Source: Parcubacteria group bacterium LiPW_15 (lineage in GTDB: Bacteria; Patescibacteriota; Minisyncoccia; UBA6257; 2-01-FULL-56-20). From it: 64,000 nt of DNA. The stretch is taken from assembly GCA_007375645.1 (NCBI GenBank), contig VMER01000001.1, forward strand, positions 337,576-401,575. The letters are read 5' to 3'. Shown piece after piece: positions 790 to 63,455 of this stretch; positions within the stretch are counted from its first letter, which is position 1, and each line of letters starts with the position of its first letter. The position numbers and the translations under genes were made by a program. The notes below the pieces were generated by a model. It saw only the letters and a program-made list of their open reading frames with translations. It was not told the DNA's origin and ran no database searches.

Positions 790-1779
790 TTACGGCAAAC
801 ACTGTTGGTGGATTGCGACAATCGCACCCTCTTCAATATCAAAGTAAGCAATATGGGAATTAGAACCACTATTGAGATCGGAGATCATTGTTGCGGCAGA
901 AATCGGAACGATTGCCATACCACTGGCACTACTACAAACAAATGCAAATGCCTTGGTAGAGCTATTAACCGACACATCTCGCAACTTTGGATTGTCGTTC
1001 AGAAAAAATGGACCTCCCAAATCACTTCCCGGCACCCACCTTGGATTCCTGGCCAGAAAATCCAAGGTTACGGTTTTGCCGTCGGCGGAAACCGCAACCA
1101 CGGCAGCCGGTTGATCCTTATATGTTTCGCCTGGCACAGGGAACTTAAACGTGGAAAGGATCTGGTCGAGAATAACTTTTGATTCCTCGTATGATATCAC
1201 TCCCGGAACAGCGAGAACCCTTGCCCTAACTTCCGGGGTCACATTGTTGGATAAAATTTGTACTTCACTTTTAGTGACAACCAGCGTTTTGCCCCCGGGA
1301 AACGGGAAATAATACGATGTCTGTCCGCAACCCTCAGCCCCCATATAAGACCACACTCCGTTCAGCGCGCCCGAGGAATAATTACCATCCGCCCTATACG
1401 GCGGATTAACCGCGCCGGGGACAACGCTCATGGATACGTTAAAATCGTTCAGTGTTTTCGACAACGCCGAGTCCCCTCTCATATCACAACCGCCGTCGCG
1501 ATTTTCAAATGGAATAGTGTGTGAAAGAATTACCGCTCCGCCCGATACAGACAAAGCCAGTTTTTCCGGATACTCGAAAGAAAAGCCATAAGTGTCATCA
1601 ACGTAAATTTTCCAGCCGGCAATCGGTGTGGATGTCGGAGTCACTGAAAGCCCGTCGAGATTCGGGGCAATCGGCGCCTGACCAGATTGTTTCCCTATAT
1701 AATACGCGCCACCGGCTACCGCCAAAACTCCGATGATTATTAATATGGCTATCGGTGCAAATCCTCCGTTGTTTTTCAT
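790..1779 (-). CDS. hypothetical secreted/membrane-anchored protein (N-terminal TM helix)
   Basis: 329 aa ORF; hydrophobic N-terminus IAILIIIGVLAVAGGAYY. Confidence 0.6.
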   Translation of the reverse strand: MKNNGGFAPIAILIIIGVLAVAGGAYYIGKQSGQAPIAPNLDGLSVTPTSTPIAGWKIYVDDTYGFSFEYPEKLALSVSGGAVILSHTIPFENRDGGCDMRGDSALSKTLNDFNVSMSVVPGAVNPPYRADGNYSSGALNGVWSYMGAEGCGQTSYYFPFPGGKTLVVTKSEVQILSNNVTPEVRARVLAVPGVISYEESKVILDQILSTFKFPVPGETYKDQPAAVVAVSADGKTVTLDFLARNPRWVPGSDLGGPFFLNDNPKLRDVSVNSSTKAFAFVCSSASGMAIVPISAATMISDLNSGSNSHIAYFDIEEGAIVAIHQQCLP

Positions 1780-1807
1780 ATGTTTATTTTAGCGCGTTAG
1801 CCCGAAC

Positions 1808-1837
1808 AAAAACACCCCGATTTCTCGGAGTGTTTTT
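1808..1837 (-). terminator. bidirectional intrinsic terminator downstream of rpsJ
   Basis: caccccga-tttc-tcggagtg hairpin flanked by A-run and T-run. Confidence 0.6.
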
Positions 1838-1850
1838 GTAGGTCGTATTC

Positions 1851-2180
1851 CTAGATTAGCTTGATGTCGACATCCACGCCTGCGGGAAGATTAAGATTCG
1901 AAAGTGATTCTATTATCTTCGCGCTGGGATTCAAGATATCGATAAGACGCTTGTGGACCCGGAGCTCGAACTGCTCTCTGGAGTCCTTATGGACAAAAGT
2001 AGAGCGGTTCACCGTATACTTCTTCATTTCAGTCGGAAGCGGTATCGGCCCGACTATTTGCGCATCGTTCTTCTCGGCAGTCTCAATGATCTGCCGGGTA
2101 GAGTTGTCGATGAGCTTGTGGTCGTAAGCGCGGATGCGCAAGCGAAGCTTCTGGGAAAATTCTTCTTTCTTTTTTGCCAT
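1851..2180 (-). CDS. rpsJ: 30S ribosomal protein S10
   Basis: 109 aa; clear similarity to S10 (RIRxxAxDHxLID...HKRLIDI). Confidence 0.95.
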   Translation of the reverse strand: MAKKKEEFSQKLRLRIRAYDHKLIDNSTRQIIETAEKNDAQIVGPIPLPTEMKKYTVNRSTFVHKDSREQFELRVHKRLIDILNPSAKIIESLSNLNLPAGVDVDIKLI

Positions 2181-2264: not shown

Positions 2265-3464
<1,200 letters not shown>

Positions 3465-3516
3465 TCGTTTTTATTAATTTTTTAAACGGGGTGACCTAAA
3501 CCCCGCAGTGTTTCTC

Positions 3517-3544
3517 ATTGTAGCGAAAAGACAACGTATGTCAA
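3517..3544 (-). promoter_or_regulatory. sigma70-like promoter for tuf (-35 TTGACA, 16-17 nt spacer, -10 TACAAT)
   Basis: minus-strand read cccTTGACAtacgttgtcttttcgcTACAATgag about 55 nt upstream of the tuf ATG. Confidence 0.6.
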
Positions 3545-3589
3545 GGGTTTTGCTGGTAAAACCTGCCTTTCGACCCTAAGCTCTACAAA

Positions 3590-5023
3590 TCAAACCCTTA
3601 GGGCCTCGCGGAAATCCTTTACCGCTTGCAAAGGATTATCGAAATACCTGTCTATAAGTCTGGCGGCTAACTCCGGCGTGGTCTTCAATTTCTCGGTTAG
3701 CGCATAAACCGCCGGAAATAATCTCGTGTTTAAAACATTGTCCAAAATCCGCTTCCTAAGCCCCCGCTCCAACTCCTCGCCGATCATCTCTACAGTCGTC
3801 GCCCCAGGCATGGCCAAGTGTGCCAAATTTTCCATAAGCGCATTCATGCGGGCAAAAAGGACCAGCTGATACGGAAGCGGCATCTTGTGCTTTATGAATA
3901 TTTTTATAAACCCGACGAACCAGAAACCAAGACCGGCAAATTCTGTTTGCTCCAGATAATCTTCAACATCTTTCCGGATAAGACCCTTAAAACGCGCGTC
4001 TGCCCGACACATGCGAACTGCCACCTTGATAGATTCTTCCACATTTCCGGCATACACCGCCAAGATAAAATCTTTTGTCTCTTCACAATCCCTGCCTTCA
4101 AAATGCCCCAAAAGACCGTAGTCCAAAAGCGCCAAGCGCCCGTTCGGCAACAAAAGCACATTCGCCGGATGCGGATCACCATGGAAGTAAAAATCCGATT
4201 CGTGCATCCAATCGTAAAGGACCGCATTCATAAATCGTTTCATAGAAGAAACTGCGTCGTACTCCGGATTGTTCTTAATAAGTTCCAGCTTGTTCATCGG
4301 CACGCCATCTATAAAGTCCATAGTGATGACATTATCCGACAAAAATTCCTCATGAATATCCGGAATTACGATCGCGTGGGTATAAGGATTTTTCCCATTT
4401 TGCATCCGCCGCACATATTTTTTCACCGTTCTTAGATTTTCCGCCTCTCTTCTAAAATCGGTCTCCTGGAACATCCAATCCTCTATCTGAGAAACAACTA
4501 CATCCATTCGAATCTGTCGAAGACTGCGAGAAAATATTTTTGTGAGCCTAAGAAGCGATTTGATTATTGCGAGATCCGATTTTATGGTCCGTTGAATATT
4601 GGGCCGGCGGATCTTCACTGCCACATCCTCGCCCGTCGTGAGCTTCGCCCTATAAACCTGAGCGATAGAAGCCGAGGCGATGGGTTGGGTATCAAACTCT
4701 TTAAACAACTCCTCGGGATATTTTTTAAAATCAGCTAAAAATATCGCCCGCACAGTTTCTTCGGAGATGGGCGGAACCTTGTCTAGAAGGCCGGCCAACT
4801 CCGCAGAATCTTCTTTGGAAATTAACTCGTAGCGGGTACTGAGCAATTGTCCGAACTTTATAAACACCGGCCCCAATTCCTCGCAGGCCAGGCGGATGCG
4901 CCTCCCTAAAATAGCTTTGCGGTTGCCGGTGAATTTGTACCAAACAAAATATTTGCCGCAAACCAAAAGCACCCTTGGAATGCGCAAAGTTGTTCCTTGT
5001 TCTCTAGCGACGCGGTTTGTCAT
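3590..5023 (-). CDS. ABC1/UbiB-family (ADCK-like) atypical protein kinase
   Basis: 477 aa; FIKFGQLLSTR, ASIAQVYRA, FHGDPHPANVLL motifs typical of the ABC1 kinase family. Confidence 0.85.
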   Translation of the reverse strand: MTNRVAREQGTTLRIPRVLLVCGKYFVWYKFTGNRKAILGRRIRLACEELGPVFIKFGQLLSTRYELISKEDSAELAGLLDKVPPISEETVRAIFLADFKKYPEELFKEFDTQPIASASIAQVYRAKLTTGEDVAVKIRRPNIQRTIKSDLAIIKSLLRLTKIFSRSLRQIRMDVVVSQIEDWMFQETDFRREAENLRTVKKYVRRMQNGKNPYTHAIVIPDIHEEFLSDNVITMDFIDGVPMNKLELIKNNPEYDAVSSMKRFMNAVLYDWMHESDFYFHGDPHPANVLLLPNGRLALLDYGLLGHFEGRDCEETKDFILAVYAGNVEESIKVAVRMCRADARFKGLIRKDVEDYLEQTEFAGLGFWFVGFIKIFIKHKMPLPYQLVLFARMNALMENLAHLAMPGATTVEMIGEELERGLRKRILDNVLNTRLFPAVYALTEKLKTTPELAARLIDRYFDNPLQAVKDFREALRV

Positions 5024-5038
5024 ATCTCGACTGTTTTG

Positions 5039-5377
5039 TTATTTACAGTCTGCGCAAAAATAATATTTTTTACCAGCCTTGTTCTCGCCGACCACCCCAA
5101 CCGTGCCCTTGGAAATTGTTTTCCCGCAAGAAGCGCATTCCATATCCTGAGCGAACTGGGCCCGGTGGAAACTCACAATATCTTCGAATTTATTTTTTTT
5201 ATCCCCCGCGCCGAATATCTCCCGCGAAAGATCATGGATTATCTCCACGCTGTCCTCTATCGCCTTGCGAGCCAAATTGGAAACGCTCTCTCGGTTCTCC
5301 TTGGCTTTCTGCTTCATCTTTTCGTAGGTTTTCCGGGAAACCCGAAAATTAATGATGTAGTCCTTGTTTTCGTCCAT
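5039..5377 (-). CDS. small ribbon-helix-helix (CopG-like) protein with C-terminal CxxC...CxxC zinc ribbon
   Basis: 112 aa; N-terminus INFRVSRKTYEKMKQKAKE..SVSNLARKAIED (RHH-like); C-terminus CASCGK...FCADCK. Confidence 0.6.
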   Translation of the reverse strand: MDENKDYIINFRVSRKTYEKMKQKAKENRESVSNLARKAIEDSVEIIHDLSREIFGAGDKKNKFEDIVSFHRAQFAQDMECASCGKTISKGTVGVVGENKAGKKYYFCADCK

Positions 5378-5506
5378 CGCTTTTAAAATGGTTTATATTA
5401 ACCGACACTTACATTGTATTACAACGTATATCCCGGTCAAGCCGCTGCGGAACTCCTCCCCTAAAAGAAAATAAACTGTGCTTTAAAAACCAAGTTCGGA
5501 AATAAA

Positions 5507-6279
5507 TTACACTCTTACAATCTTACAGTTATTGAAGGCGTGTAAAATGTCGTTTTTTATAAGTTCGAATGTTTCTGCCCCCACCCCATCGCTTGCAGTA
5601 ACGCCATTTCCATACAACACCACTTTCACATTTTTACCTACATCGAAGATCGCGATGTATCCCCTTAATCTCAAAGTCTCATAAGACTTCCCCTTATTTT
5701 GAGGCCTTAGCATCTTACCGAATAAATTTAGGGATGGATTATAAGCGTTGAATACATAAGACATGACAACCGCCGAAAGTTTCAGCCAGATGCGACTGAA
5801 GCCATCTCCGACATCGCTATGAGTCAGGCATCCTCCTTTGTAGAGGGTTCCGGAATATTGGCCAAGTTTGATAGAGCCTATTTTTTGGAACCTTGTTCGG
5901 TCATCTCGCAAAAAGAATGCGGATCGCCGTATCGCCTCAACCAACCTTCCTGATCCGCAACCGCAAGATTAAAATGATCATGTAAATTCCACGCTTGTCC
6001 CTCCTCCAATTTGACCGTATATCCGCCAAGCCAAGATTGGTACTGTGGCTTTTCGGAAACAAACCGGGAAGAGACACCGTTTTCAACCCTCCCAACCGTA
6101 AAATAATTTGCTCCTTTGGAAATTTTAAGTCCGAATTTCTGCCAGGTTCGTGTCATCTCGCACCCCATAATTCCATCGATCCAAAGGTCGGGAATTTCCG
6201 TAAAAACAAGCTTGTAGCCGATCTCGCTTTCGGCTTGTTTTAATTTATTCAGAATTATTAGGTCAGAAATGAATTTCAC
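5507..6279 (-). pseudogene. hypothetical protein gene split into two ORFs (5878..6279 and 5507..5944) by a frameshift at an A6 run (plus-strand T6 at 5881..5886)
   Basis: the two overlapping ORF frames join exactly at CCAAAAAATAGG; A7 instead of A6 gives one continuous protein of about 257 aa. Confidence 0.5.
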
Positions 6280-7010
6280 GTTTTTGCCAGCAAAACCTGG
6301 GTGGCTTCCATGGGTTGCAATTTCTCCGGCTTGCCAACCATAAATTCGTCAAAAGCTTTCCAAACGCCTTCGCATTGCCCGTAATCATGGGAAAGAATTC
6401 TGCCGCCGGGCAGCATCCTCGGATAGAAAAATTCCAGGGCTTTTTTTGTAACGCTATAAAGATCCACGTCCAAATGGACAAAAGAAAATTTCAGATCTTT
6501 AACAGCCTCCCCTGTTTCAGGGAACAATCCCGGATATATTTGAATAGCCGGATACCTAGAAAGCCTGGCTCTAACTTCTTTTTCGCCAGCGAGAAACATT
6601 CCTTTCTTGAATCTTCCGTCCCGCCCACTAACCTCATCCGGCAACCCTTCGAAAGTGTCAAAAAGATGGAGCGGGGTTTTATTTTTCACCTCGCAAATCA
6701 CTTTTGCAGAGGCCCCGCGGAATACACCGACTTCGGCAAATGCGCCGCCGTGATCGGCCATAATGCGAGCCTGCTCCCAAATGTTAAGAAGTTCGCCCGG
6801 GCTGAACAACACCGGCTTTCTGCCGGTGAAAAAACTGCCGATCATTGACCCCTCTTCCTCGCGATAAATTTCGGATACAAGATCAAACGCCTTCTTTTCA
6901 AGCGGATTGCGTTTGTAATATTTTAGTTTACCAAGCTCAACGCGCGACATGATGCGCTTTAAAAACATTCCCCAGCGAGTATTTGAAATTTGATTATCGA
7001 TTCCCGGCAT
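6276..7010 (-). CDS. class I SAM-dependent O-methyltransferase, TylF/MycF-like family
   Basis: 244 aa; GAFAEVGVFRGASAKVI, LHLFDTFEGLP, FVHLDVDLY...LPGGRILSHDY; 4-nt ATGA overlap with the downstream ORF. Confidence 0.8.
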   Translation of the reverse strand: MPGIDNQISNTRWGMFLKRIMSRVELGKLKYYKRNPLEKKAFDLVSEIYREEEGSMIGSFFTGRKPVLFSPGELLNIWEQARIMADHGGAFAEVGVFRGASAKVICEVKNKTPLHLFDTFEGLPDEVSGRDGRFKKGMFLAGEKEVRARLSRYPAIQIYPGLFPETGEAVKDLKFSFVHLDVDLYSVTKKALEFFYPRMLPGGRILSHDYGQCEGVWKAFDEFMVGKPEKLQPMEATQVLLAKT

Positions 7011-7017
7011 TATTGTT

Positions 7018-7052
7018 ATTTATAAGCAAAGAACACTGTAGCGACCGCAAAA
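7018..7052 (-). promoter_or_regulatory. putative promoter with extended -10 (TGcTTATAAAT) ending about 7 nt before the methyltransferase ATG (leaderless transcript suspected)
   Basis: minus-strand read TTTTGC-17nt-TGCTTATAAAT-aacaata-ATG. Confidence 0.35.
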
Positions 7053-7138
7053 ATCAGAGCAACAGAGAAATTTCATATCTTCGTCTAAAAATTATCTACT
7101 ATCCGTTGGCAGACGTAAAGATAAAAAATGGCCCGCCG

Positions 7139-7170
7139 CCTACATGGCATTGGGCCCGAACGAAAGAACG
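7139..7170 (-). terminator. intrinsic terminator after small CDS 7179..7475
   Basis: GGCCC...GGGCC hairpin followed by ATTTTTTAT on the minus strand. Confidence 0.45.
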
Positions 7171-7178
7171 TGCTACCG

Positions 7179-7475
7179 CTACCGCTTTTGCTTGTCCGAG
7201 ACCGGCGCCGGCTGAGAAACGCCAGTGGGATCCAGCCTCCTCAGAAGCTCAGCCTCCAGAATGCCCCTTAGCACCCCCTGCGGGGCATGCTGACACGCCG
7301 AAGCGAAATCAGCTACCAACTCCCGACCGGACATAGTTTCCGGAACTGCAAAATCACGACCCATATACCCTCCAATCTTTTCACATCCGTCCTTTGGATG
7401 TGACCGAAATATAACAACCTCGGAAATGTCCGTCAAACAAAAATCCCGCCTATCCATAGATGGGCGGGATTCCAT
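7179..7475 (-). CDS. hypothetical small protein (GC-rich 3' half)
   Basis: 98 aa ORF; RBS AAGGGG 8 nt upstream; own terminator. Confidence 0.35.
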   Translation of the reverse strand: MESRPSMDRRDFCLTDISEVVIFRSHPKDGCEKIGGYMGRDFAVPETMSGRELVADFASACQHAPQGVLRGILEAELLRRLDPTGVSQPAPVSDKQKR

Positions 7476-7500
7476 TGTTTATCCCCTTGATCGCTACTTT

Positions 7501-9606
7501 TTACTTTCTCTTTCCGGAAACTATCTCAGCCTCAATATTTTTCGGAACGGGCTCGAAATGGTCGAATTCCATCGTGAACGAACCTCTCCCCTGAGACATG
7601 GAACGGATCTCCGTCGCGTAACCGAACATTTCGGAAAGCGGGATCTTCGCGTCCACGATCTTGATGGTTCCCCTGTCGCTAAGTTGTTCGATCTTTCCGC
7701 GCTTCGCGTTTACGTTGCCGGTCACTTCTCCCATGAAATCCATCGGCACAAGAATCTGTACTTTCATGATCGGTTCCAAGATAACGGCCTTCGCGCGCTT
7801 AGTAGCTTCCTGGAGCGCCATGGAAGCGGCCATTTTGAAAGCGGCTTCGGAAGAGTCCACTTCGTGGTAAGAACCGTCGAAGAGGGTGACTTCCACGTCT
7901 ATCATCGGATAGTGAGCGACAACTCCGCGGTCCAATGCTTCTTTAACTCCTTTTTCGATAGGCGAAATAAATTCCTGAGGAATAACGCCTCCTTTGATGG
8001 CGTTGATAAATTCAAAACCTTTGCCGCGCTCAAGCGGTTTGACCGAAAGCCAACAGTGTCCGTACTGACCGCGTCCGCCGGACTGGCGGATATATTTTCC
8101 TTCCGCCTCCGCTTCTCCCAAAATTGTTTCCTTGTAGGCAACCTGCGGACGGCCGACATTCGCATCCACGCCGAATTCACGCTTCATGCGGTCCACGATA
8201 ATTTCCAAGTGTAATTCACCCATACCGGAGATGATGGTCTCTCCCGTGTCGGGATCTCCATGAACTTTAAAGGTCGGATCCTCTTCGGCCAAGCGGCGCA
8301 AAGCATTACCCATTTTTTCCTGGTCAACTTTGGTCTTCGGCTCAATTCTGATTCCGATGACCGGTTCCGGAAAGCTGATGGATTCCAAAACTACCTGATT
8401 CTCGGGATCAGTGATGGTGTCCCCGGTCGTGGTGTCTTTAAGGCCGACGATAGCAGCGATTTCTCCGGCATAAACTTCGTCCACTTCTTCGCGGTCATTG
8501 GCGTGCATACGAACAATACGTCCGACACGTTCCTGAACGCCCTTGGTGGTGTTCATAATATAAGAACCTTTTTTCAAAACTCCGGCATAAACCCTGAAAT
8601 ACGCGAGAGAACCGATGTAAGGATCGGCGGCAATCTTGAAAGCCAAACCGGTAAACGGTTCAGCGTCGGATGCCGCTCTAAATATTTCTTCCCCAGTCGA
8701 AACGTTATGCCCCTTAGTCGGCGGAATATCCAGCGGAGACGGGAGGTAATCCACAACCGCGTCCAACATAAACTGAACGCCTTTATTTTTTAAAGCTGTT
8801 CCGCAAAGAACCGGAACAATTTTGTTCTCAATCGTGGCCTTCCTCAACGCGTGCTTCAGCTCAGCCAAGGTGACTTCTTTGCCTTCCAAATATTTAGCCA
8901 TCAAGGCATCTTCCGTATCTACAATTTTCTCAACGGCATCGTGGCGATATTTTTCTACCTCGGACTTCATATTTTCCGGAATCGGAATCTCGATAACTTT
9001 CTCGCCGCGTTCACCCTGGAACTCGTAAGCTTTGTTAGCCAAGAGATCCACAAGACCGCTCACATCGGACTCGGAACCTATCGGAAGCTGTATGGGAACA
9101 GCCGTCTTAGTCAGGCGTTCGTGTATGGAAGCGAGGCTCTTCAAAAAACTCGCGCCCATTCTGTCGAGCTTGTTGATAAAGCAAACGCGCGGAACTTTAT
9201 AGTCGTCGGCGTAATGCCAGTTGGTTTCGGATTGCGGTTCCACGCCGGAAACTCCGTCGAAGACCACAACCGCGCCGTCCAAAACGCGCAAAGACCGCTT
9301 TACCTCAACGGTAAAGTCGATGTGGCCGGGAGTGTCGATAAGGTTGATGCGATGTTCAAAATTTTTGTCTCCTTTCGCGTAGGTCGGGGTCCAGAAAGCG
9401 GTCGTCGCAGCGGAAGTAATAGTGATGCCGCGCTCTCTCTCCTGTTCCATCCAGTCCATAACCGTGGTTCCCTCGTGCACTTCTCCGATCTTGTGGGAAA
9501 CGCCGGTATAAAAAAGCACGCGCTCGGAAACGGTCGTCTTTCCGGCATCAATATGCGCGATAATCCCAATATTCCTGACTTTTTCGATAGGATATTGTCG
9601 GGGCAT
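7501..9606 (-). CDS. fusA: elongation factor G
   Basis: 701 aa; [17 protein letters not shown] and EF-G domain IV/V signatures. Confidence 0.97.
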
Positions 9607-9611
9607 GGCAG

Positions 9612-10079
9612 TTAGCGAGCAAAGTGGGCGAAAGCGCGGTTCGCTTCGGCCATCCTGTGGGTGTCTTGTTTCTTCTTGATAGCGGTGCCTTCGTTTTTGG
9701 AGGCGGCGATTATTTCGTTCGCGAGCTTCTCGGCTATCGGCTTACCCTTTCCGGAACGGGCGGCATCAACCATCCAACGCAAAGCCAAAATGAATTTACG
9801 GGAAGGAGTAACTTCGCGAGGAACCTGGTAGTTCGCGCCACCAACGCGGCGGGAGGCGACTTCTAATATAGGAGAGGCGTTCTCCACGGCTCTTTCAAAA
9901 ACAACTATCGGCTCTTCCTTGGTTATTTCTTTGATTATCGCGAAAGCGTCATAAACATCGCGCTCGGCAACGGATTTCTTTCCGTCACGCATTATATAGT
10001 TAATAAGCCGGCTCACGTCTATGCGGCCATGAACTGTGTCTCCTTTATAGTGCTTCTTGTAAACTCTCTTTTTGCGCAT
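9612..10079 (-). CDS. rpsG: 30S ribosomal protein S7
   Basis: 155 aa; S7 family similarity ([23 protein letters not shown]-like). Confidence 0.95.
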
Positions 10080-10109: not shown

Positions 10110-10535
10110 CTACTTCTTCGCTCCTCCCTTGGCTCTTTTAGCTCCGTACTTGGAGCGCTGTTGCTTTCTTCCTTCCACGCCGGAAGTATCCAAGACTCCG
10201 CGCACAACATGGTAGCGGACACCCGGAAGATCTTTTACGCGGCCTCCGCGAATAACAACGATGGAGTGCTCCTGGAGGTTGTGGCCCTCTCCTCCGATGT
10301 AGGCAGTAGTTTCCATGCCGTTAGTCAAACGAACGCGGCAAACTTTACGCAAAGCGGAGTTCGGTTTCTTCGGAGTGGTGGTGAAAACTTTAAGACATAC
10401 TCCCCTCTTAAATGGAGACGGGGAATTCACGGGCTTATTTTTGAGGTGGTTAAAATAATACGAAAAAGCCGGAGACTTGGTCTTCGTCTTTAGAACTTTC
10501 CTTCCGCGTTTTACGAGCTGATGGATTGTAGGCAT
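10110..10535 (-). CDS. rpsL: 30S ribosomal protein S12
   Basis: 141 aa; [12 protein letters not shown]...[11 protein letters not shown] signature. Confidence 0.95.
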
Positions 10536-37653: not shown

Positions 37654-38688
37654 CTAAGCAGGCAGTTTTTCAATTTCTGCTTCAATAAATTTATCCAAAT
37701 CTCCCGCAAGCACTTCGTCCACCCTTGCAGTTTCTTCCTCTGTTCTGTGGTCCTTCACCATTTGATAAGGATTTAAAACGTAAGAACGGAGTTGGTTTCC
37801 CCATTCCGGCTTAACATTTATCCTTAGCTCCTTTATCTCTTTCACTTTATTCGCCTCCATAAGCTGTAAAAGTTTGGCTTTTAAAAGATTCAGGGCCTTT
37901 TCCCGATTCTGCGCCTGGCTACGTTCCGCCCGGCTCGCAGCCACAATGCCCGTCGGAATATGCGCAACCCGGACGGCGGTCTCCACCTTATTCACATTCT
38001 GTCCCCCGGGGCCTCCGGCGCGTGAAAATTCAAATTTCAGATCAGCATCCGGGATCTCCAATTTCTGCGCGTCTACTTGCGGAAGATCTGGCAAGACTTC
38101 AACCAAAGCAAAGGAGGTGTGCCTAAGTTTCTTCGGAGAAAATGGAGAGATCCTCACAAGCCGATGCACACCGGATTCTCGACGCAGATAACCATAGGCG
38201 TTCGCTCCCGCAATTTCCAAAGTCGCGCTCCGGATATTATCGTCCAGAACCTTTGTCTTCCAGCCGCGGCGCTTGGCATAGCCCTCATACATTTTAAAAA
38301 GCATAGTGGCCCAATCTTCCGCATCTTCGCCGCCGGCTCCGGGGAAAATAGAAATTATCGCAGACTGTTTGTCGTGCGTACCCGTAAAAAGTTCCCGGAG
38401 CTCCAGACTCCTGAATATTCTTCGGGCTTCAAAAAAATCTCCTTCGCTTCCCGCTTCCGCTTTTTGCACGGCGGAAAGGACTTCCTCATAGCGAGCCATT
38501 ACGTCCTGCAGCTCGCCCATCTCTTTTATTTTTTGATCCGCCGCTTCGCGGTTGGACCAGAATCCGGGCTCGGACATCTCTGCTTCAAGTTCCGTGAGTT
38601 TCTGCCGTTTTTCGAAAACTCCAAGTTTTTCGCCCAAAGCGGCGACTTCATTTTTCAGATCCTCGATTGTTTCGAGCTCGTGAGTCAT
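37654..38688 (-). CDS. prfB: peptide chain release factor 2 (contiguous ORF, no programmed frameshift)
   Basis: 345 aa from MTHELE; SPF tripeptide motif; GGQ motif. Confidence 0.9.
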   Translation of the reverse strand: MTHELETIEDLKNEVAALGEKLGVFEKRQKLTELEAEMSEPGFWSNREAADQKIKEMGELQDVMARYEEVLSAVQKAEAGSEGDFFEARRIFRSLELRELFTGTHDKQSAIISIFPGAGGEDAEDWATMLFKMYEGYAKRRGWKTKVLDDNIRSATLEIAGANAYGYLRRESGVHRLVRISPFSPKKLRHTSFALVEVLPDLPQVDAQKLEIPDADLKFEFSRAGGPGGQNVNKVETAVRVAHIPTGIVAASRAERSQAQNREKALNLLKAKLLQLMEANKVKEIKELRINVKPEWGNQLRSYVLNPYQMVKDHRTEEETARVDEVLAGDLDKFIEAEIEKLPA

Positions 38689-38698
38689 TGATCTTTTC

Positions 38699-38772
38699 TG
38701 GAGCCGATGGAGGGAATCGAACCCACGTTTATGCTTTACGAAAGCACCGTTCTGCCATTGAACTACATCGGC
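38699..38772 (-). tRNA. tRNA-Thr (anticodon CGT), CCA encoded
   Basis: reverse complement folds as GCCGATG-TA-GTTC..; anticodon loop TTCGTAA; one U-U mismatch in the T-stem. Confidence 0.7.
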
Positions 38773-38869
38773 AATATTTACTTCCCTGAGTTTAGCCGAA
38801 ACCGATAAAAAACTCCAGATAATCAAAACCTCCGCGGAAGCGGAGGTTTTGATGCTGAAAAAATCATTC

Positions 38870-39346
38870 CTATCCCAGCTTACTCGCAACGTAATTGGTA
38901 AATTCCTGTTCGGTCGGCGGAATGCCACCACTGTCTCCCATGTATTTTTCGTATATACCCTCCAAGACTCCTTCCAGCTTGGCCCGAGCTTCGGCCTCAC
39001 GAGCCTGTTGCTCAACACCGACTGGCTTGTGAAAGCCCATACCTTGTTTCTGAAGATATTTTTCAACGAGAGCATCAATTATCTTCTCTTTTTTTGTCTT
39101 AGTCTCTGTCGGCAATTCTTCTTTCTGCCCATCCAATAAATTTGCGACATAACCAGTAAGCTCCTGTTCGGTCGGCGGAACACCGCCGCTCTCTGTCATA
39201 TATTTCACAAAAATGCCCTCGAGAATACTTTTAAGCTTTGCCCTATCACCAGCCTCACGGCTATATTGCATATCTATCGCGGCATCAGAAAGACCCGCCC
39301 CTGGGAGGCCCCTACCCTGCTCGTGAAGATATTTATCAACGAGCAC
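38870..39346 (-). CDS. hypothetical protein made of two (plus a partial third) roughly 70 aa tandem repeats
   Basis: 158 aa; repeats IDALVEKYLQKQG..GGIPPTEQEFTNYVASKL and LVDKYLHEQG..GGVPPTEQELTGYVANLL; GTG start. Confidence 0.55.
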   Translation of the reverse strand: MLVDKYLHEQGRGLPGAGLSDAAIDMQYSREAGDRAKLKSILEGIFVKYMTESGGVPPTEQELTGYVANLLDGQKEELPTETKTKKEKIIDALVEKYLQKQGMGFHKPVGVEQQAREAEARAKLEGVLEGIYEKYMGDSGGIPPTEQEFTNYVASKLG

Positions 39347-60068: not shown

Positions 60069-63000
60069 CTACTGCTTACACGTCGGATCGATCGGATTAC
60101 ATTCGATTATAGAGGTTACGGTCACACCAATGTTCGCGATGGTCTTAACCCCGCCCCTCAGACACTCCAGGATATATTGTCCGGTCTTTGTGGGCGTTAC
60201 TTTCTGAATAGCGCCGCAAGAACTCGCAGCCGGACAAGAGGACGGAACCGAACCCAGGGAAACTTTGGTGCCGCTTGTTGTATCGTAAAGCACACATCCG
60301 GTTACGCCGGAATCGCAACTCCAGGTGAGAGTCGATGAGCTTCCCTTGGAAATGATCTTCGGATTGGCTGACATTGTGCAGGAAGTCGGAGCGGTACAGC
60401 CCTGACCGATAGTCGTGCATTGGTTCTCCCCGGGACCACCGACTATTAAACATGCATTGTTCTGACACTCCAAATGTATTACTCCAGCGCCGCCGCAACC
60501 TGGATCGCCCGTACAAAGATTGGTTCCCGCGCCGGCAACGTTAACGCAAGATTGTGTAGCCGGATCGCAAGCTGCATGGAATGGGTCGCCTCCTCCCACG
60601 CCTCCACAATCCGCGCTTGCACTGCATCTGTCCGGACCTCCACCGGTCACGTTTGCACAAGAATTATTTACGCATTCTTTATGCGTTCCCCCGCCCGGAG
60701 GAGTGGAGCAGCCACTACAATCGGTAACTCCGCAGCCGGGAATAGATGTACAAGCACCCGCGACACAGCCGTTATGAGGACTCGTCTGGCCCGCCGGACA
60801 AGAAGCCGGTACACAGGCGTTGCCGTTTTTAACATATCCGCTTCCGCATCTGGCTTCGCACTTCACCTGAGGGGTACAAGCGCTTACAAGCGTGGTCGGC
60901 GTATCGACAGTGAGTCCGCTTGTGTCTCCGGAACAATACAGGGAATTCGCGGGAAGGCTGCCGGTACAAACATATTCCGCCGATACGCACAATCCTCCTT
61001 CATTGACGCAACCATCTTCATTTGAGCCGCCTCCATCTACTAATACGCAAGAATTATTGGCGCAGGCAAGGTGGCTTCCTCCGCTACAGGATTCACCCAC
61101 GCTACCGCAACCGTCTTGATTCGCGCCACCGCCGTCCAGCATGGCACAGGAATTACCCACGCACCCAAGATGATATCCCCCGCTACAGGACTGATCTACG
61201 CCGGTGCAGCCGTTCTCATTTGCGCCACCACCCGGCAGCACGGCGCAGGAATTGCCGACACACGCAAGATGATTTCCTCCCCCGCCGCAAACCTGACCGG
61301 CGTTATTGCATCCATCCAAATTGCCCACGGCGCCGCGAACGCGCACGCAAGAACTGCCCAAACATTCCAAATGACTGCTCCCGCTCGAACAGGAAAGAAT
61401 AAAATCCGCGGTTCCGCCGGGACTAATCGTTTGCGAAGCGGGACCCGAAAGAACACATGGCTCATACCCGCTTATCGTATATTGGCCATCTGTCGCCTTG
61501 TAGCTTACAAAATAATCCGAGCCCGAACTTCCGCTTTGATTGTCTCCCGGCACAACGTTGTTAACGGTCAGAGCCGTGGCGTTATCCGCCGGAGTCGGAC
61601 CGCTCATTGTCCAATTCGCAGGATATCCGTTTTTGTATGTAACTCGAACCGAACCTCGACAGTCTTTAATAGCAACCAATGCGTTGGATTGACCCCAGCC
61701 GGAAAAACTCGCCCTGGTATCAACTTCCTGGCGATAACCCTTGACCGGAATACCGGATCCATCATCAGCGCAGGAATGCGGAGTTTGTCTCGAACCATTA
61801 CCGGCTGCATCGGTCCCCATCCACTCCGGGTTAAGATGGCTGAAAGAACGCGCAATAGTCGGATAAAGATCATATTCCTCGGCAATTCTGGAAAGCTCTG
61901 CCGTGCTGTTCGGCTTACCGCCGGTCACACTAGCCACCGCATTTTCGTCTTGCCAACCAAAAGCGTTGGGAACAATAGTAAGTTGCACGTTATGCGAGAC
62001 CGCAGAAACGGTAACTGGCGTGAATGCTACTAATCCTTGGAACCCTCCGCTAACCTGTGCAGTCCCGGGAGCAATGCCGGTTAAGGTGGCGCTATCATCG
62101 GTTTCTGAAGTCCTTTTGATAACACTAAAGTTGTTGGAATCGATGTTCGCCCCGGCACCCACCGGCATACTCACAGATCCGTTCGTATACCAGGCATGAT
62201 AAACCAAACTTCCACCGACTCCAACAGAGCTATTGGTCGGCGTAATCGTTAGACTCCCCGTTCCACAATTATGAGACGGCTCACAACTCGAAGGTTCGCT
62301 GCCGGGAACACTTATACAAGAAACTCCATCCAGAGAGCAGGCATAGTGCTGATCGCCCGGAGGAAGAGTGACTGTCACCACATCCTGCGCGGAACCGGCA
62401 AAATCTCCATACGGATCTCTGCAAGTTATCCCAAAGGTAGTGGTCCGATCGATCGCAGGATAGCTGGCGCTTCCGCTCGCACCGGCTCCCGAACCCGAAA
62501 GAGGCGCGGATTGGCCGGAATTCCAACCAGCGGTGGCCGGAGAAGAAAACTTTGTGCACTCGTAATCGGCCCCGTTCAATCTTGGATCGTTACTCGTAAC
62601 CCCATACGTAATATTTCCGGAAACTCCGGTTGTCCCCGCACCTGGCCTGGCCTCAACGCTTATCGTCGGAGCCATTCCCGCGACATCAACCACTGTCGAA
62701 CAAACTCCTGAGCCGGCCACATTCGAACAGGTCATGGTATAAGTCGTCGGAAGCTGGGTAGAAAAAGAAACACTCCCGCCGGAAGGAGGATTAACGGTGC
62801 CCGGAGAATTGCCGCAAACTCCACTTCCATAAGGTCCAGAGCAGGAAGCCGCGATCGAACAGCTCGTTGGATTGCCATTGCCAGTCCAAGATAGAGTTCC
62901 GGAAACAGAAGTGTTGCTCGGACTTAGCACTCCCGAACTCGGATTTGCGGAAATAGAACAGGAAGCGGTCGGGGGTTGGAGTACATTTACGGTTGCCCTA

Positions 63001-63455
63001 ACGGTCGGACTGTCGCCGTTTGCATTACTGCAGTACATATCCACCCAATGAGTGCCGGGAGAAGCCCAAGACCACGGCGAAGAACCAGGAGTACTCAGCG
63101 TATACGGGAAAGATCCGTCCGGAGTTCCGTGGCAAACCGTGGCTCCCCTCGATGCGCTCCAAGACACGAGCACGTTTTCACCGGCATTAACCGTCCCCGG
63201 ATCAATGGTCAGCGAGGTTACCGGCAAACAAGAAGGCGAGGCCGCGCAGCTTGCTTGATCGGCATAGAGGCCACTGGGCGTAGGCCAAGTATCCGAATAA
63301 GTACAGGCATAATCGTCGATCGCGGCACACTTCCAACCATCGTATGGGCCTTCCCCCGGTGCGACAGCCGCATTGGCGCTAGCCGCAAAAAAAAGTGTAA
63401 GTGCGGCAAAGGCGAAAAGGATAATATTTATTTTTTTCATTTTATTTTTGGGCAT
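60069..63455 (-). CDS. giant secreted Cys/Gly/Ser/Thr-rich surface protein with tandem roughly 30 aa Cys repeats
   Basis: 1128 aa; N-terminal signal peptide; repeats of C(V/A)GNSC(A/V)xLxGGGAN(E/Q)xGC..SCSGGxHL. Confidence 0.8.
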   Translation of the reverse strand: MPKNKMKKINIILFAFAALTLFFAASANAAVAPGEGPYDGWKCAAIDDYACTYSDTWPTPSGLYADQASCAASPSCLPVTSLTIDPGTVNAGENVLVSWSASRGATVCHGTPDGSFPYTLSTPGSSPWSWASPGTHWVDMYCSNANGDSPTVRATVNVLQPPTASCSISANPSSGVLSPSNTSVSGTLSWTGNGNPTSCSIAASCSGPYGSGVCGNSPGTVNPPSGGSVSFSTQLPTTYTMTCSNVAGSGVCSTVVDVAGMAPTISVEARPGAGTTGVSGNITYGVTSNDPRLNGADYECTKFSSPATAGWNSGQSAPLSGSGAGASGSASYPAIDRTTTFGITCRDPYGDFAGSAQDVVTVTLPPGDQHYACSLDGVSCISVPGSEPSSCEPSHNCGTGSLTITPTNSSVGVGGSLVYHAWYTNGSVSMPVGAGANIDSNNFSVIKRTSETDDSATLTGIAPGTAQVSGGFQGLVAFTPVTVSAVSHNVQLTIVPNAFGWQDENAVASVTGGKPNSTAELSRIAEEYDLYPTIARSFSHLNPEWMGTDAAGNGSRQTPHSCADDGSGIPVKGYRQEVDTRASFSGWGQSNALVAIKDCRGSVRVTYKNGYPANWTMSGPTPADNATALTVNNVVPGDNQSGSSGSDYFVSYKATDGQYTISGYEPCVLSGPASQTISPGGTADFILSCSSGSSHLECLGSSCVRVRGAVGNLDGCNNAGQVCGGGGNHLACVGNSCAVLPGGGANENGCTGVDQSCSGGYHLGCVGNSCAMLDGGGANQDGCGSVGESCSGGSHLACANNSCVLVDGGGSNEDGCVNEGGLCVSAEYVCTGSLPANSLYCSGDTSGLTVDTPTTLVSACTPQVKCEARCGSGYVKNGNACVPASCPAGQTSPHNGCVAGACTSIPGCGVTDCSGCSTPPGGGTHKECVNNSCANVTGGGPDRCSASADCGGVGGGDPFHAACDPATQSCVNVAGAGTNLCTGDPGCGGAGVIHLECQNNACLIVGGPGENQCTTIGQGCTAPTSCTMSANPKIISKGSSSTLTWSCDSGVTGCVLYDTTSGTKVSLGSVPSSCPAASSCGAIQKVTPTKTGQYILECLRGGVKTIANIGVTVTSIIECNPIDPTCKQ
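60960..61390 (-). repeat. tandem coding repeats (about 90 nt unit, 4 or more copies) inside the giant protein gene
   Basis: repeated GCG..GNSCA..GGGANxxGC protein motif; extent approximate. Confidence 0.5.

What the first reader, a model, noticed from the sequence alone, without database searches (positions are those of the whole stretch)
3590..7475. Four-kb gene insert splitting fusA from tuf: methyltransferase, frameshifted gene, RHH/Zn-ribbon protein and ABC1-family kinase
In the conserved str operon, fusA is normally followed directly by tuf. Here five or six co-oriented genes intervene. They are a small protein with its own terminator (7179-7475), a TylF/MycF-like SAM O-methyltransferase with an apparently leaderless promoter, a translationally coupled unknown gene broken at an A6 run, a ribbon-helix-helix plus CxxC..CxxC zinc-ribbon protein, and an ABC1/UbiB-type kinase ending 70 nt before the tuf promoter. 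ABC1 kinases are normally linked to quinone biosynthesis, which a CPR-like organism would not be expected to have. A kinase plus methyltransferase plus RHH regulator wedged into the highly conserved translation operon is unexpected. It could be a regulatory or modification module that targets the translation factors encoded on either side.
Basis: partly seen in the sequence, partly recalled or inferred. Interest (0 to 1): 0.65.

Follow-up and report, generated by a model that had tools for sequence, protein, structure and literature searches.

The report
Two accessory operons between fusA and tuf
The 4 kb between the elongation-factor genes fusA and tuf of this Parcubacteria genome holds two separate accessory gene pairs, not a module acting on translation; one pair, a small DNA-binding protein plus a UbiB/ABC1-type ATPase with a strikingly conserved operator, recurs across related bacteria and has not been described.

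Summary
The genes are real and mostly as described. All lie on the minus strand: fusA, an untrustworthy small ORF, a TylF-family O-methyltransferase, a 257-aa gene broken at an A6 run, an RHH/Zn-ribbon protein, an ABC1/UbiB kinase-like protein, then tuf.

The source is Parcubacteria group bacterium LiPW_15.

The insert is a composite:
- **RHH-ZnR + ABC1.** This is a tightly coupled two-gene operon with its own promoter. It was found in all 26 related loci examined. Every copy is preceded by the near-palindrome TGTAWTACA, usually twice and one helical turn apart, overlapping the -10 box. This is a likely autoregulatory operator.
- **TylF + 257-aa protein.** This is a separate, translationally coupled cassette. 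The 257-aa protein has a PsbP/LpqN-like fold. An 87-89% identical relative lacks the cassette. A 96% identical relative has it with an intact A7 run.

fusA ends in a strong conserved terminator and tuf has its own promoter. The position of the pair varies among relatives, so a role in modifying EF-G or EF-Tu is unsupported.

The four gene families are nonetheless linked far more often than chance would give. The biochemical function remains inferred.

The parts
7501..9606 (-). fusA (EF-G), last gene of the rpsL-rpsG-fusA unit
   Evidence: Seven EF-G Pfam domains, GTP_EFTU 7.6e-60
7442..7471 (-). Intrinsic terminator of fusA: hairpin followed by UUUUUGUUU
   Evidence: dG -22.5 kcal/mol, z -4.4. 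L007 has a different stem sequence that also folds, at -24.9
7408..7436 (-). Promoter-like site TTGACG-17-TATATT, conserved in L007
   Evidence: 10/12 matches with TG. Same hexamers in L007
7179..7475 (-). Probably not coding; the region is a short conserved non-coding unit
   Evidence: No family hits. Its start lies inside the terminator loop. L007 conserves the DNA (~70%) but not the frame. Substitutions by codon position are 10/7/11. No Rfam match
7123..7156 (-). Weak terminator-like hairpin plus U-run. It marks the upstream edge of the TylF cassette indel
   Evidence: dG about -17 to -19, z -1.4. A homologous element is present in L007
5445..7120 (-). About 1.7-kb cassette (TylF + 257-aa gene), present or absent among close relatives
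   Evidence: Homology of L007 to the window stops at 7386 and resumes at 5441. The cassette is present in L108, which is 95.7% identical. GC is 0.44, the 5.6th percentile of the window. No flanking repeats
6276..7010 (-). TylF/MycF/NovP-family SAM-dependent O-methyltransferase
   Evidence: PF05711 at 55 bits against a cutoff of 23. PDB hits 4cdz 4e-8 and NovP 2.5e-7. 100% identical to LiPW15_388
5507..6279 (-). Frameshifted gene of an uncharacterised 257-270-aa family with a PsbP/Mog1/LpqN-like fold. It is translationally coupled to TylF through a GTGA overlap
5881..5886 (-). A6 run carrying a 1-nt deletion relative to the A7 of the 96% identical relative
   Evidence: L108 reads GGTTCCAAAAAAATAGGC and is intact. 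The run is not conserved in other homologues
5413..5440 (-). Promoter of the RHH-ABC1 operon (TTGACC-16-TACAAT)
   Evidence: 10/12 matches. Conserved in L007. TTGAC is conserved in most loci
5415..5423 (-). Core of the candidate operator TGTAATACA, overlapping the -10 box. It is the only exact copy in the 64 kb
   Evidence: One match against 0.09 expected. The motif is present upstream of the RHH gene in 27/27 loci, 125-fold enriched
5039..5377 (-). RHH plus C-terminal four-Cys zinc-ribbon protein, the putative autoregulator and partner of ABC1
   Evidence: Sub-threshold RHH hits. The single-sequence AF2 model shows two helices plus a beta domain. The family comprises 43 clusters, all about 110-130 aa
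3590..5023 (-). ABC1/UbiB-family atypical kinase-like ATPase of the short (~475 aa) Parcubacteria subfamily
   Evidence: PF03109 1.3e-59. All catalytic motifs are invariant in 34 sequences. No transmembrane segment. Closest solved structures are MSMEG_1954/Rv3197 and COQ8A
3517..3544 (-). tuf promoter TTGACA-16-TACAAT
   Evidence: 11/12 matches. Region conserved in L007
2265..3464 (-). tuf (EF-Tu)
   Evidence: GTP_EFTU 3.8e-64, plus D2 and D3 domains

Best explanation
The fusA-tuf gap of this Parcubacteria genome (LiPW_15) is a transcriptionally insulated slot. It has collected two independent accessory units.

**Unit 1 (5440-3590).** This is an autoregulated two-gene operon. A ribbon-helix-helix/zinc-ribbon protein is made together with a soluble UbiB/ABC1-family ATPase or kinase. 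The stop-to-start gap is 15 nt here and ranges from -1 to +17 nt elsewhere.

The RHH protein most likely binds, as cooperating dimers, to TGTAWTACA repeats spaced 10-11 bp apart across the -35/-10 region. This would repress its own promoter. The ABC1 partner, whose ATP-binding residues are all intact, would bind or process a hydrophobic small molecule or lipid and modulate that repression. The DNA binding, the interaction with ABC1 and the ligand are all inferred, not shown.

**Unit 2 (about 7120-5445).** This is a horizontally mobile, translationally coupled cassette. It encodes a TylF-type O-methyltransferase and a PsbP/LpqN-fold protein. Elsewhere the same cassette sits in glycosyltransferase clusters or next to recombinase and Rep genes. 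It was gained, or lost in the sister lineage, recently. Its second gene is inactivated here by a 1-nt deletion in an A7 run, or by an assembly error at that run.

Neither unit is wired to EF-G or EF-Tu.
For: **Transcriptional insulation**
- The fusA terminator has dG -22.5 and z -4.4. It is conserved through compensatory changes in L007.
- There are separate sigma-70-like promoters for the RHH operon (10/12 matches) and for tuf (11/12 matches).

**Obligate RHH-ABC1 pair**
- Every RHH locus whose contig continues has ABC1 immediately downstream. Kinase identity to the window ranges from 26% to 92%.
- RHH is always at least as conserved as the kinase.
- 79 non-CPR UbiB loci, 1.2 Mb in total, have no RHH, TylF or 257-aa neighbour.

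**Operator**
- GTAWTAC occurs within 120 nt upstream of the RHH gene in 27/27 loci. That is 12.3 sites per kb against 0.098 per kb in the rest of the same loci.
- 13 loci have two exact copies 10-11 nt apart.
- The core is near 2 bits per position.
- It is unique in the window.

**Active ABC1**
- KxGQ, the Ala-rich loop, K137, E193, D283/H285/N288 and D301/G303 are invariant.

**Cassette**
- It is absent in L007 and intact in L108.
- TylF and the 257-aa gene overlap by 4 nt in L114, inside a cluster of more than 10 glycosyltransferases. They do the same in L116, next to a serine recombinase and a Rep gene.
- TylF is 81% identical in an organism whose kinase is only 48% identical.

**Variable position**
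-.
Against: - No experiment or expression data exist. RHH assignment rests on sub-threshold profile hits and a single-sequence model with pLDDT 71.
- Part of the motif conservation could simply reflect the -10 box.
- The pair lies within about 5 kb of the str operon in 4 of 18 lineages, in two different arrangements (window/L007/L002, and L005). That is more than random placement would give.
- TylF or the 257-aa gene sits next to the pair in 8 of 18 lineages. The two units may therefore not be functionally independent.
- The ligand or substrate of ABC1 is unknown.
Confidence: 0.68

Rival explanations
1. One reading: kinase, methyltransferase and RHH regulator form one module that modifies or regulates EF-G and/or EF-Tu, which is why it sits between their genes.
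For: - The pair is close to str-operon genes in the window, L007, L002 (upstream of tuf) and L005 (about 1 kb upstream of M50-rpsL-rpsG-fusA).
- No terminator lies between ABC1 and the tuf promoter.
- Kinases that target EF-Tu exist in other systems (my own knowledge: Doc, and some Ser/Thr kinases).
Against: - In at least 12 other lineages no str gene lies within 8-10 kb.
- The methyltransferase cassette is missing in the closest relative.
- The cassette occurs elsewhere in glycan clusters.
- fusA is terminated and tuf has its own promoter.
- UbiB-family proteins have not been shown convincingly to phosphorylate proteins. COQ8 acts as a lipid-handling ATPase (PMC13418538; bioRxiv 10.1101/149823).
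Confidence: 0.06
2. RHH-ZnR + ABC1 is a toxin-antitoxin-like or defence or mobile-element cargo module. A small RHH antitoxin or repressor neutralises a kinase toxin.
For: - The architecture resembles type II TA systems: a small upstream RHH gene overlaps a larger downstream gene, with an operator in the promoter.
- Weak RelB-antitoxin and NikA-like hits.
- Narrow, patchy family: 43 clusters for RHH and about 50 for the kinase.
- Large serine recombinases lie nearby in L009, L010 and L115.
- Weak hits to PD-T4-6 defence kinases.
Against: - The PADLOC hits are generic kinase-fold similarity at E of about 1e-6.
- No ABC1-family toxin is known (my own knowledge).
- RHH is more conserved than its partner, whereas antitoxins usually diverge faster.
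- The locus is syntenic among close relatives.
- No repeats or integration scars were found.
Confidence: 0.1
3. The A6 break is functional: a programmed -1 ribosomal frameshift or transcriptional slippage, or phase variation, still yields the full 257-aa protein.
For: - The break lies in a homopolymer. The downstream frame is intact, and 96% of residues match the intact relative, with 16 synonymous against 9 non-synonymous codon changes.
- Two assemblies agree on A6.
Against: - The relative encodes the protein in frame with A7.
- The run is absent from other homologues and lies in a variable loop.
- A6 is short for efficient slippage (my own knowledge).
- The two assemblies probably share the same reads.
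Confidence: 0.07
4. All four genes form one functional system, for example methylation and handling of a polyprenyl-linked glycan or another hydrophobic metabolite. In that case the insert is a single unit, not a composite.
For: - TylF and/or the 257-aa family lie within 3 kb of RHH-ABC1 in 8 of 18 lineages, in at least four different arrangements. The rough chance expectation is about 1% per genome.
- Recurrent EamA, MFS, GT2 and Exo_endo_phos neighbours.
- LpqN, a structural neighbour of the 257-aa protein, binds envelope lipids according to its PDB title.
Against: - 10 of 18 lineages have the pair alone.
- TylF plus the 257-aa gene occur without the pair in L114 and L116.
- The operator motif is not found upstream of TylF or elsewhere in the window.
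- Co-location may simply reflect shared residence in flexible or mobile regions.
Confidence: 0.2

Closest known systems
UbiB / ABC1 / COQ8 (ADCK3) family of atypical kinase-like ATPases (Pfam PF03109)
   Same: Full-length ABC1 domain (1.3e-59). The KxGQ motif, Ala-rich loop, catalytic Lys/Glu and DPHPxN and D[FY]G motifs are invariant. Sequence-related to COQ8A structures at 6e-13.
   Different: About 475 aa against 550-580 aa for canonical bacterial UbiB. It lacks the extra domain PF27536 that is precomputed for the long forms. No hydrophobic transmembrane segment. It scores 257 bits against a cutoff of 487.55 for the UbiB equivalog. No ubi genes were seen in the neighbourhoods examined. It is always paired with an RHH-ZnR gene, which none of 79 ordinary UbiB loci has.
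MABP-1 (Rv3197 / MSMEG_1954), the soluble macrolide-binding ABC1 ATPase of mycobacteria
   Same: Best solved-structure matches, at 2e-21 and 1e-19. Both are soluble ABC1 proteins without transmembrane regions. MABP-1 is an ATPase that binds a hydrophobic small molecule and acts outside quinone synthesis (PMC6208485, PMC8696161).
   Different: Only 86.8 bits against a cutoff of 800 for NF050082, so it is not an orthologue. There is no evidence of macrolide binding. MABP-1 is not described with an RHH partner.
Ribbon-helix-helix autorepressors (CopG, Arc, MetJ, AvtR) and RHH antitoxins (RelB/ParD type)
   Same: An N-terminal strand-helix-helix pattern with weak profile matches. The small gene is first in the operon. 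Short repeats one helical turn apart overlap the promoter.
   Different: It carries a conserved C-terminal CxxC...CxxC zinc-ribbon-like domain. Its partner is an ABC1 ATPase. It is unusually well conserved, with 67% mean column identity across 25 sequences. All profile hits fall below the curated thresholds.
TylF / MycF / NovP sugar O-methyltransferases
   Same: Pfam PF05711 is above threshold. The protein aligns to NovP and MycF, including the LD(G/V)DLY metal/SAM region. In L114 a relative lies inside a large glycosylation cluster.
   Different: It is not in an antibiotic biosynthesis cluster. The DDY motif reads HDY. It is obligately coupled to a PsbP-fold protein of unknown function. The substrate is unknown.
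PsbP / Mog1 / LpqN / DcrB alpha-beta sandwich proteins
   Different: Less than 10% sequence identity. Only about half of the 257 residues are covered. Foldseek finds nothing significant. There is no Pfam family. The protein has no signal peptide-like N-terminus; the model starts with a long helix.
Canonical str operon (rpsL-rpsG-fusA-tuf)
   Same: rpsL, rpsG and fusA are contiguous, and tuf-rpsJ follow on the same strand.
   Different: fusA and tuf are separate transcription units 4 kb apart. They are also non-adjacent in relatives L005, L007 and L002.

Membership tests
UbiB/ABC1 family (PF03109) | ABC1 domain above Pfam's gathering score | tested here: met
   201.8 bits against a cutoff of 22.9, covering profile positions 2-241 of 244
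UbiB/ABC1 family (PF03109) | UbiB-specific KxGQ motif and Ala-rich nucleotide loop, plus catalytic Lys, Glu, Asp/Asn and the DFG-like Asp | tested here: met
   K56/G58/Q59, A116/A118/S119/Q122, K137, E193, D283/H285/N288 and D301/G303 are invariant or nearly invariant in 34 sequences. Mapping of motifs to function is from my own knowledge and PMC6208485
UbiB proper (ubiquinone biosynthesis; TIGR01982 / NF003404 equivalogs) | Score above NCBIfam's equivalog cutoff | tested here: not met
   257.3 bits against 487.55, and 201.4 against 667
UbiB proper (ubiquinone biosynthesis; TIGR01982 / NF003404 equivalogs) | C-terminal membrane anchor and the long (~550 aa) architecture | tested here: not met
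   477 aa. The highest 19-residue Kyte-Doolittle mean is 1.24. The long forms carry an extra precomputed domain that is absent here
UbiB proper (ubiquinone biosynthesis; TIGR01982 / NF003404 equivalogs) | Genomic or organismal link to quinone biosynthesis | tested here: inconclusive
   No ubi-type genes were seen in the called neighbourhoods of the loci. Whole genomes were not examined
MABP-1 macrolide-binding ATPase (NF050082) | Score above the family cutoff | tested here: not met
   86.8 bits against 800
Ribbon-helix-helix DNA-binding proteins | Significant match to an RHH profile | tested here: inconclusive
   NikA-like 24.5 bits against 27; RHH_5 19.7 against 26; RelB 20.4 against 50. The profile against PDB gives AvtR 0.039, HP0222 0.35 and Arc 1.1
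Ribbon-helix-helix DNA-binding proteins | Strand-helix-helix fold | tested here: inconclusive
   The single-sequence AF2 model has pLDDT 71, with an extended N-terminus and helices 15-27 and 32-55. Foldseek matches only the C-terminal domain, weakly, to Zn fingers
Ribbon-helix-helix DNA-binding proteins | Repeated operator half-sites about one helical turn apart at its own promoter | tested here: met
   TGTAWTACA is present in 27/27 loci. There are two exact copies 10-11 nt apart in 13 loci, and the motif is 125-fold enriched. Binding itself was not tested
Type II toxin-antitoxin systems | Small antitoxin gene overlapping or abutting a downstream toxin gene | tested here: met
   Gap of -1 to +17 nt in 13 loci
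Type II toxin-antitoxin systems | Downstream gene belongs to a known toxin or defence family | tested here: not met
   Only generic kinase-fold hits to PD-T4-6, at E of about 1e-6. It is a full ABC1 protein
TylF/MycF/NovP O-methyltransferases (PF05711) | Family profile above threshold and alignment to solved members | tested here: met
   55.2 bits against 23. 4cdz 4e-8, NovP 2.5e-7, MycF 5e-3
TylF/MycF/NovP O-methyltransferases (PF05711) | Sugar substrate in a natural-product or glycan pathway | not testable with these tools
   Context only. A relative with 82% identity lies in a glycosyltransferase cluster
Programmed -1 frameshift genes (dnaX-like) | Slippery site and two-frame organisation conserved among homologues | tested here: not met
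   More than 120 homologues are single ORFs. The nearest relative has an in-frame A7. The run is absent in other lineages
Canonical str operon | tuf immediately downstream of fusA in one transcription unit | tested here: not met
   4,036-bp gap, a terminator after fusA and a promoter before tuf

The most novel reading that the evidence does not exclude
The RHH-ZnR/ABC1 operon may be an undescribed, Parcubacteria-restricted sensing or handling system. In it, a UbiB-family ATPase works on a hydrophobic ligand unrelated to quinone synthesis. Candidates are a polyprenyl-linked envelope glycan intermediate, a scavenged host lipid, or an antibiotic as in MABP-1. The ATPase would then signal through its dedicated zinc-ribbon RHH repressor at the TGTAWTACA operator. 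The TylF methyltransferase and the PsbP/LpqN-fold protein would be optional accessory components. This would give the UbiB family a defined non-quinone role in organisms that are thought to lack quinones.
Probability: 0.2. Interest if true: 0.7.

Novelty: new variant of a known kind. Interest (0 to 1): 0.45.

Why it matters
What UbiB/ABC1 proteins do at the molecular level is still debated. Most work ties them to coenzyme Q (PMC13418538, PMC8346625, bioRxiv 10.1101/149823).

Here a compact, soluble subfamily occurs in Parcubacteria, reduced bacteria thought to lack quinone synthesis. It is always co-translated with a highly conserved small DNA-binding protein, behind an almost invariant operator. 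That makes a simple, testable system for protein-DNA binding, ATPase activity and ligand screening, which could reveal a non-quinone role for the family.

Full-text searches found no paper linking UbiB/ABC1 with CPR or Patescibacteria.

The placement between fusA and tuf is, by contrast, ordinary genome plasticity. In this clade the fusA-tuf junction is not conserved.

Tried and rejected
- **GTDB genome scan with the kinase alignment.** It was swamped by ordinary UbiB genes. Only one CPR locus (L011) was useful. The other 79 loci were reused as a negative control.
- **Rfam, at gathering and E-value thresholds, on 3400-7600.** No RNA family was found, so the conserved non-coding unit at 7120-7436 remains unnamed.
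- **Foldseek of the RHH model.** Only weak Zn-finger look-alikes.
- **PADLOC.** No defence system assignment.
- **Repeat search at the cassette borders.** Only chance-level short repeats, with no target-site duplication.
- **One-mismatch operator search in the window.** 9 matches against 5.5 expected, so there is no sign of a wider regulon.
- **Fusion (Rosetta-stone) search for RHH-ABC1 proteins.** None found.
- **Contig-length match suggesting a third TylF-kinase contig of 5204 bp.** It proved coincidental.
- **Literature searches for UbiB/ABC1 in CPR, TylF in Parcubacteria, and the 'LiPW' genome.** They returned nothing usable.
- **Structure prediction of RHH-ZnR with its family alignment.** This was not possible because locus-derived sequences are not accepted. 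Only a single-sequence model was obtained.

Full report
**1. What is there**

All relevant genes lie on the minus strand:

| Feature | Coordinates |
|---|---|
| rpsL | 10110-10535 |
| rpsG | 9612-10079 |
| fusA | 7501-9606 |
| 98-aa ORF | 7179-7475 |
| TylF-family methyltransferase | 6276-7010 |
| Two overlapping ORFs (one broken gene) | 5878-6279 and 5507-5944 |
| 112-aa protein | 5039-5377 |
| ABC1 protein | 3590-5023 |
| tuf | 2265-3464 |
| rpsJ | 1851-2180 |

Family assignments are as follows.
- The methyltransferase matches Pfam TylF at 55 bits against a cutoff of 23.
- The ABC1 protein matches Pfam ABC1 at 1.3e-59.
- The 112-aa protein matches NikA-like and RHH_5 just under threshold.
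- NCBIfam places the kinase in the UbiB superfamily. It falls far below the equivalog cutoffs for UbiB (257 bits against 487.55) and MABP-1 (87 against 800).

The methyltransferase is 100% identical to LiPW15_388 of 'Parcubacteria group bacterium LiPW_15', on a contig of 481,644 bp. A Logan assembly of SRR8863432 is identical to the window over 11.9 kb.

**2. The broken gene**

The first ORF stops at GGT TCC AAA AAA TAG. Stepping back one base joins it to the second ORF and gives 257 aa.

- More than 120 homologues of 255-270 aa cover the whole fused sequence. One is 96% identical and 257 aa long.
- That relative's contig (L108) is 95.7% identical in DNA and reads A7 where the window reads A6.
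- The run lies in a variable loop and is absent from other homologues. This is therefore a one-base deletion, or an assembly error, and not a conserved recoding site.
- The repaired protein folds confidently as a single body, with pLDDT 92.9 and pTM 0.91.
- Foldseek and Pfam find nothing.

**3. The small ORF**

Immediately after fusA there is a strong hairpin at 7442-7471, with dG -22.5 and z -4.4, followed by U-rich sequence. The ATG of the ORF lies in its loop.

In the relative L007 the stem sequence differs but still pairs, at -24.9. That marks a functional terminator.

A promoter-like site at 7436-7408 follows and is conserved in L007. The 3' half of the ORF region is about 70% identical to L007 at the DNA level. 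However, L007's called ORF is in another frame, and differences are spread 10/7/11 over the codon positions. I treat this ORF as unsupported. No Rfam family matches.

**4. The insert is a composite**

L007 has a kinase 92% identical to the window's and DNA 87-89% identical. It reads rpsL-rpsG-fusA, then a short non-coding stretch, then RHH-ABC1, about 300 extra nt, and tuf.

Homology with the window runs 10611-7386, then 5441-3589, then 3549-3177. The TylF plus 257-aa cassette, about 7120-5445, is therefore a presence/absence difference between close relatives. It is present in L108.

The cassette is slightly AT-richer. Its GC is 0.44, the 5.6th percentile of the window. It has no flanking repeats.

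The same two genes, again overlapping by 4 nt, occur elsewhere:
- in L114, inside a cluster of more than 10 glycosyltransferases;
- in L116, beside a large serine recombinase and a Rep-like gene.

Homologues of both genes carry labels from Yanofskybacteria, Woesearchaeota, Nanoarchaeota, Blastocatellia and Pyrinomonadaceae. TylF is 81% identical in an organism whose kinase is only 48% identical. All of this indicates a horizontally mobile cassette.

**5. The RHH-ZnR + ABC1 pair**

The kinase has about 50 close cluster representatives of 465-490 aa. Some are labelled Paceibacterota or Parcubacteria. They are clearly separated from the 550-580-aa canonical forms.

- In every context examined, a 108-121-aa homologue of the RHH-ZnR protein lies immediately upstream.
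- Searching JGI metagenomes from the RHH side gave 23 loci. Wherever the contig continues, ABC1 follows. Kinase identity to the window ranges from 26% to 92%.
- The stop-to-start distance is -1 to +17 nt.
- The RHH protein is consistently at least as conserved as the kinase. Its mean column identity is 67%.
- Its family is small, with 43 clusters among 1.84 billion representatives. All strong hits are about 110-120 aa, and there are no fusions to kinases.
- None of 79 ordinary UbiB loci (1.2 Mb) has an RHH-ZnR, TylF or 257-aa neighbour.
- All nucleotide-binding and catalytic residues of the ABC1 fold are invariant.
- No transmembrane segment is predicted.
- The nearest solved structures are the soluble mycobacterial ABC1 ATPases MSMEG_1954 and Rv3197 (MABP-1), followed by COQ8A.

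**6. A conserved operator**

Aligning the 110 nt upstream of all RHH genes revealed TTGAC, then one copy of TGTAWTACA, then a second copy 10-11 nt later that overlaps the -10 box (TGTAATACAAT). In some loci a third related repeat, TGTAATTGTCG, follows.

- GTAWTAC is present within 120 nt upstream of the RHH gene in 27 of 27 loci. The density is 12.3 per kb, against 0.098 per kb in the rest of the same loci and 0.053 per kb in control loci.
- 13 loci have two exact copies.
- In the window the only exact copy in 64 kb is at 5415-5423, against 0.09 expected.
- One-mismatch copies are not enriched.
- In the window's own clade the upstream copy is degenerate.

This pattern is typical of RHH repressors that bind as adjacent dimers. 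It is my main argument that the small protein is an autoregulator. Binding itself is inferred.

**7. Is there a link to translation?**

Evidence against a link:
- The pair lies between fusA and tuf only in the window and L007.
- In L002 (73% identity) it lies upstream of tuf, but with more than 7 kb of unrelated genes and no fusA before it.
- In L005 (50% identity) it lies upstream of M50-rpsL-rpsG-fusA, and there a response regulator separates fusA from tuf.
- In the remaining lineages no str gene lies within 8-10 kb.
- The fusA terminator and the separate promoters add to this.

Together these argue against a module that targets EF-G or EF-Tu.

Four of 18 lineages near the str operon is more than random placement would give. 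It is most simply read as remnant synteny, but I cannot exclude a weak functional link.

**8. Linkage among the four families**

TylF and/or the 257-aa family lie within 3 kb of the pair in 8 of 18 distinct lineages: window/L108, L003, L009, L010, L093, L104, L105 and L107=L115. The arrangements differ. The gene is upstream on the same strand with 0-3 intervening genes, or downstream on the opposite strand.

For genomes of about 0.5-1 Mb, the chance expectation is roughly 1% per genome. That figure is my own estimate.

Other recurrent neighbours are EamA and MFS transporters, a 110-117-aa acidic protein, APH-like and GNAT enzymes, Exo_endo_phos, DGR-type reverse transcriptases and serine recombinases.

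Two explanations are possible. Either these genes work together on some envelope or small-molecule substrate, or they simply share the flexible, mobile part of these genomes. I cannot separate the two.

**9. Mechanism and confidence**

| Level of support | Statements |
|---|---|
| Shown by computation | gene identities; the frameshift; the indel; the terminator and promoters; the obligate gene pair; the conserved motif |
| Inferred | RHH-ZnR binds the motif and represses its own operon; ABC1 is an active ATPase that, like COQ8 and MABP-1 (PMC13418538, bioRxiv 10.1101/149823, PMC6208485, PMC8696161), handles a hydrophobic ligand and feeds back on the repressor; the TylF cassette methylates a sugar or small molecule |

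**10. Verdict**

The finding as worded, an insert that may act on translation factors, is largely ordinary genome plasticity.

The conserved RHH-ZnR/ABC1 operon and its operator are a new variant of a known family. No literature on it turned up in my searches, and it is moderately interesting.

Noticed in passing
window 790-2180 (minus strand): rpsJ is not followed by rplC/rplD as it is in L005. The next gene (790-1779) encodes a 329-aa protein with an N-terminal hydrophobic helix and no Pfam match. No L3 or L4 homologue exists anywhere in the 64 kb, so the S10 operon is also split in this genome.
   Followed up: partly
L007 6860-7170: The close relative has about 310 extra nt between ABC1 and the tuf promoter, where the window has about 40 nt. 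The stretch contains hairpin-like sequences and a doubtful 97-aa ORF.
   Followed up: no
L005 13581-14003 (also L006): In a relative whose kinase is 50% identical, a 140-aa response-regulator receiver protein sits between fusA and tuf. This suggests the junction is a recurrent insertion point in Parcubacteria.
   Followed up: no
L002 977-1870; L003 15935-17329; L010 5499-6848; L105 28-444: Reverse transcriptase (RVT_1) genes lie within 10 kb of the RHH-ABC1 pair in several lineages. In L003 and L010 they are paired with bAvd-like genes typical of diversity-generating retroelements.
   Followed up: no
L009 1-555; L010 1-42; L115 5553-6872; L116 301-2641: Large serine recombinases flank the pair or the TylF cassette. 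In L116 there is also a Rep-like gene. This hints that these genes travel on integrative elements.
   Followed up: no
window 3517-3544 and 5413-5440: The tuf and RHH promoters share ACGTTGT and TACAATG around their -10 regions. The tuf promoter of L007 lacks ACGTTGT, so this is probably coincidence.
   Followed up: partly
L002 9439-9789; L008 5835-6188; L103 11737-12069; L104 11737-12066; L105 2416-2748: A 110-117-aa acidic protein family with no Pfam match lies directly downstream of ABC1 in five lineages, on either strand. It is absent from the window.
   Followed up: partly
window 60069-63455 (minus strand): An ORF of 1,128 aa has no Pfam match at 1e-5.
   Followed up: no
window 37654-39078 (minus strand): The mechanical ORF for the peptide-chain release factor (PCRF + RF-1 domains) runs across tRNA-Thr at 38699-38772. 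The true start must lie downstream of the tRNA.
   Followed up: no
L011 829-1155: In the Nomurabacteria relative, the RHH partner has lost three of the four zinc-ribbon cysteines but keeps the RHH half and the two-copy operator.
   Followed up: no
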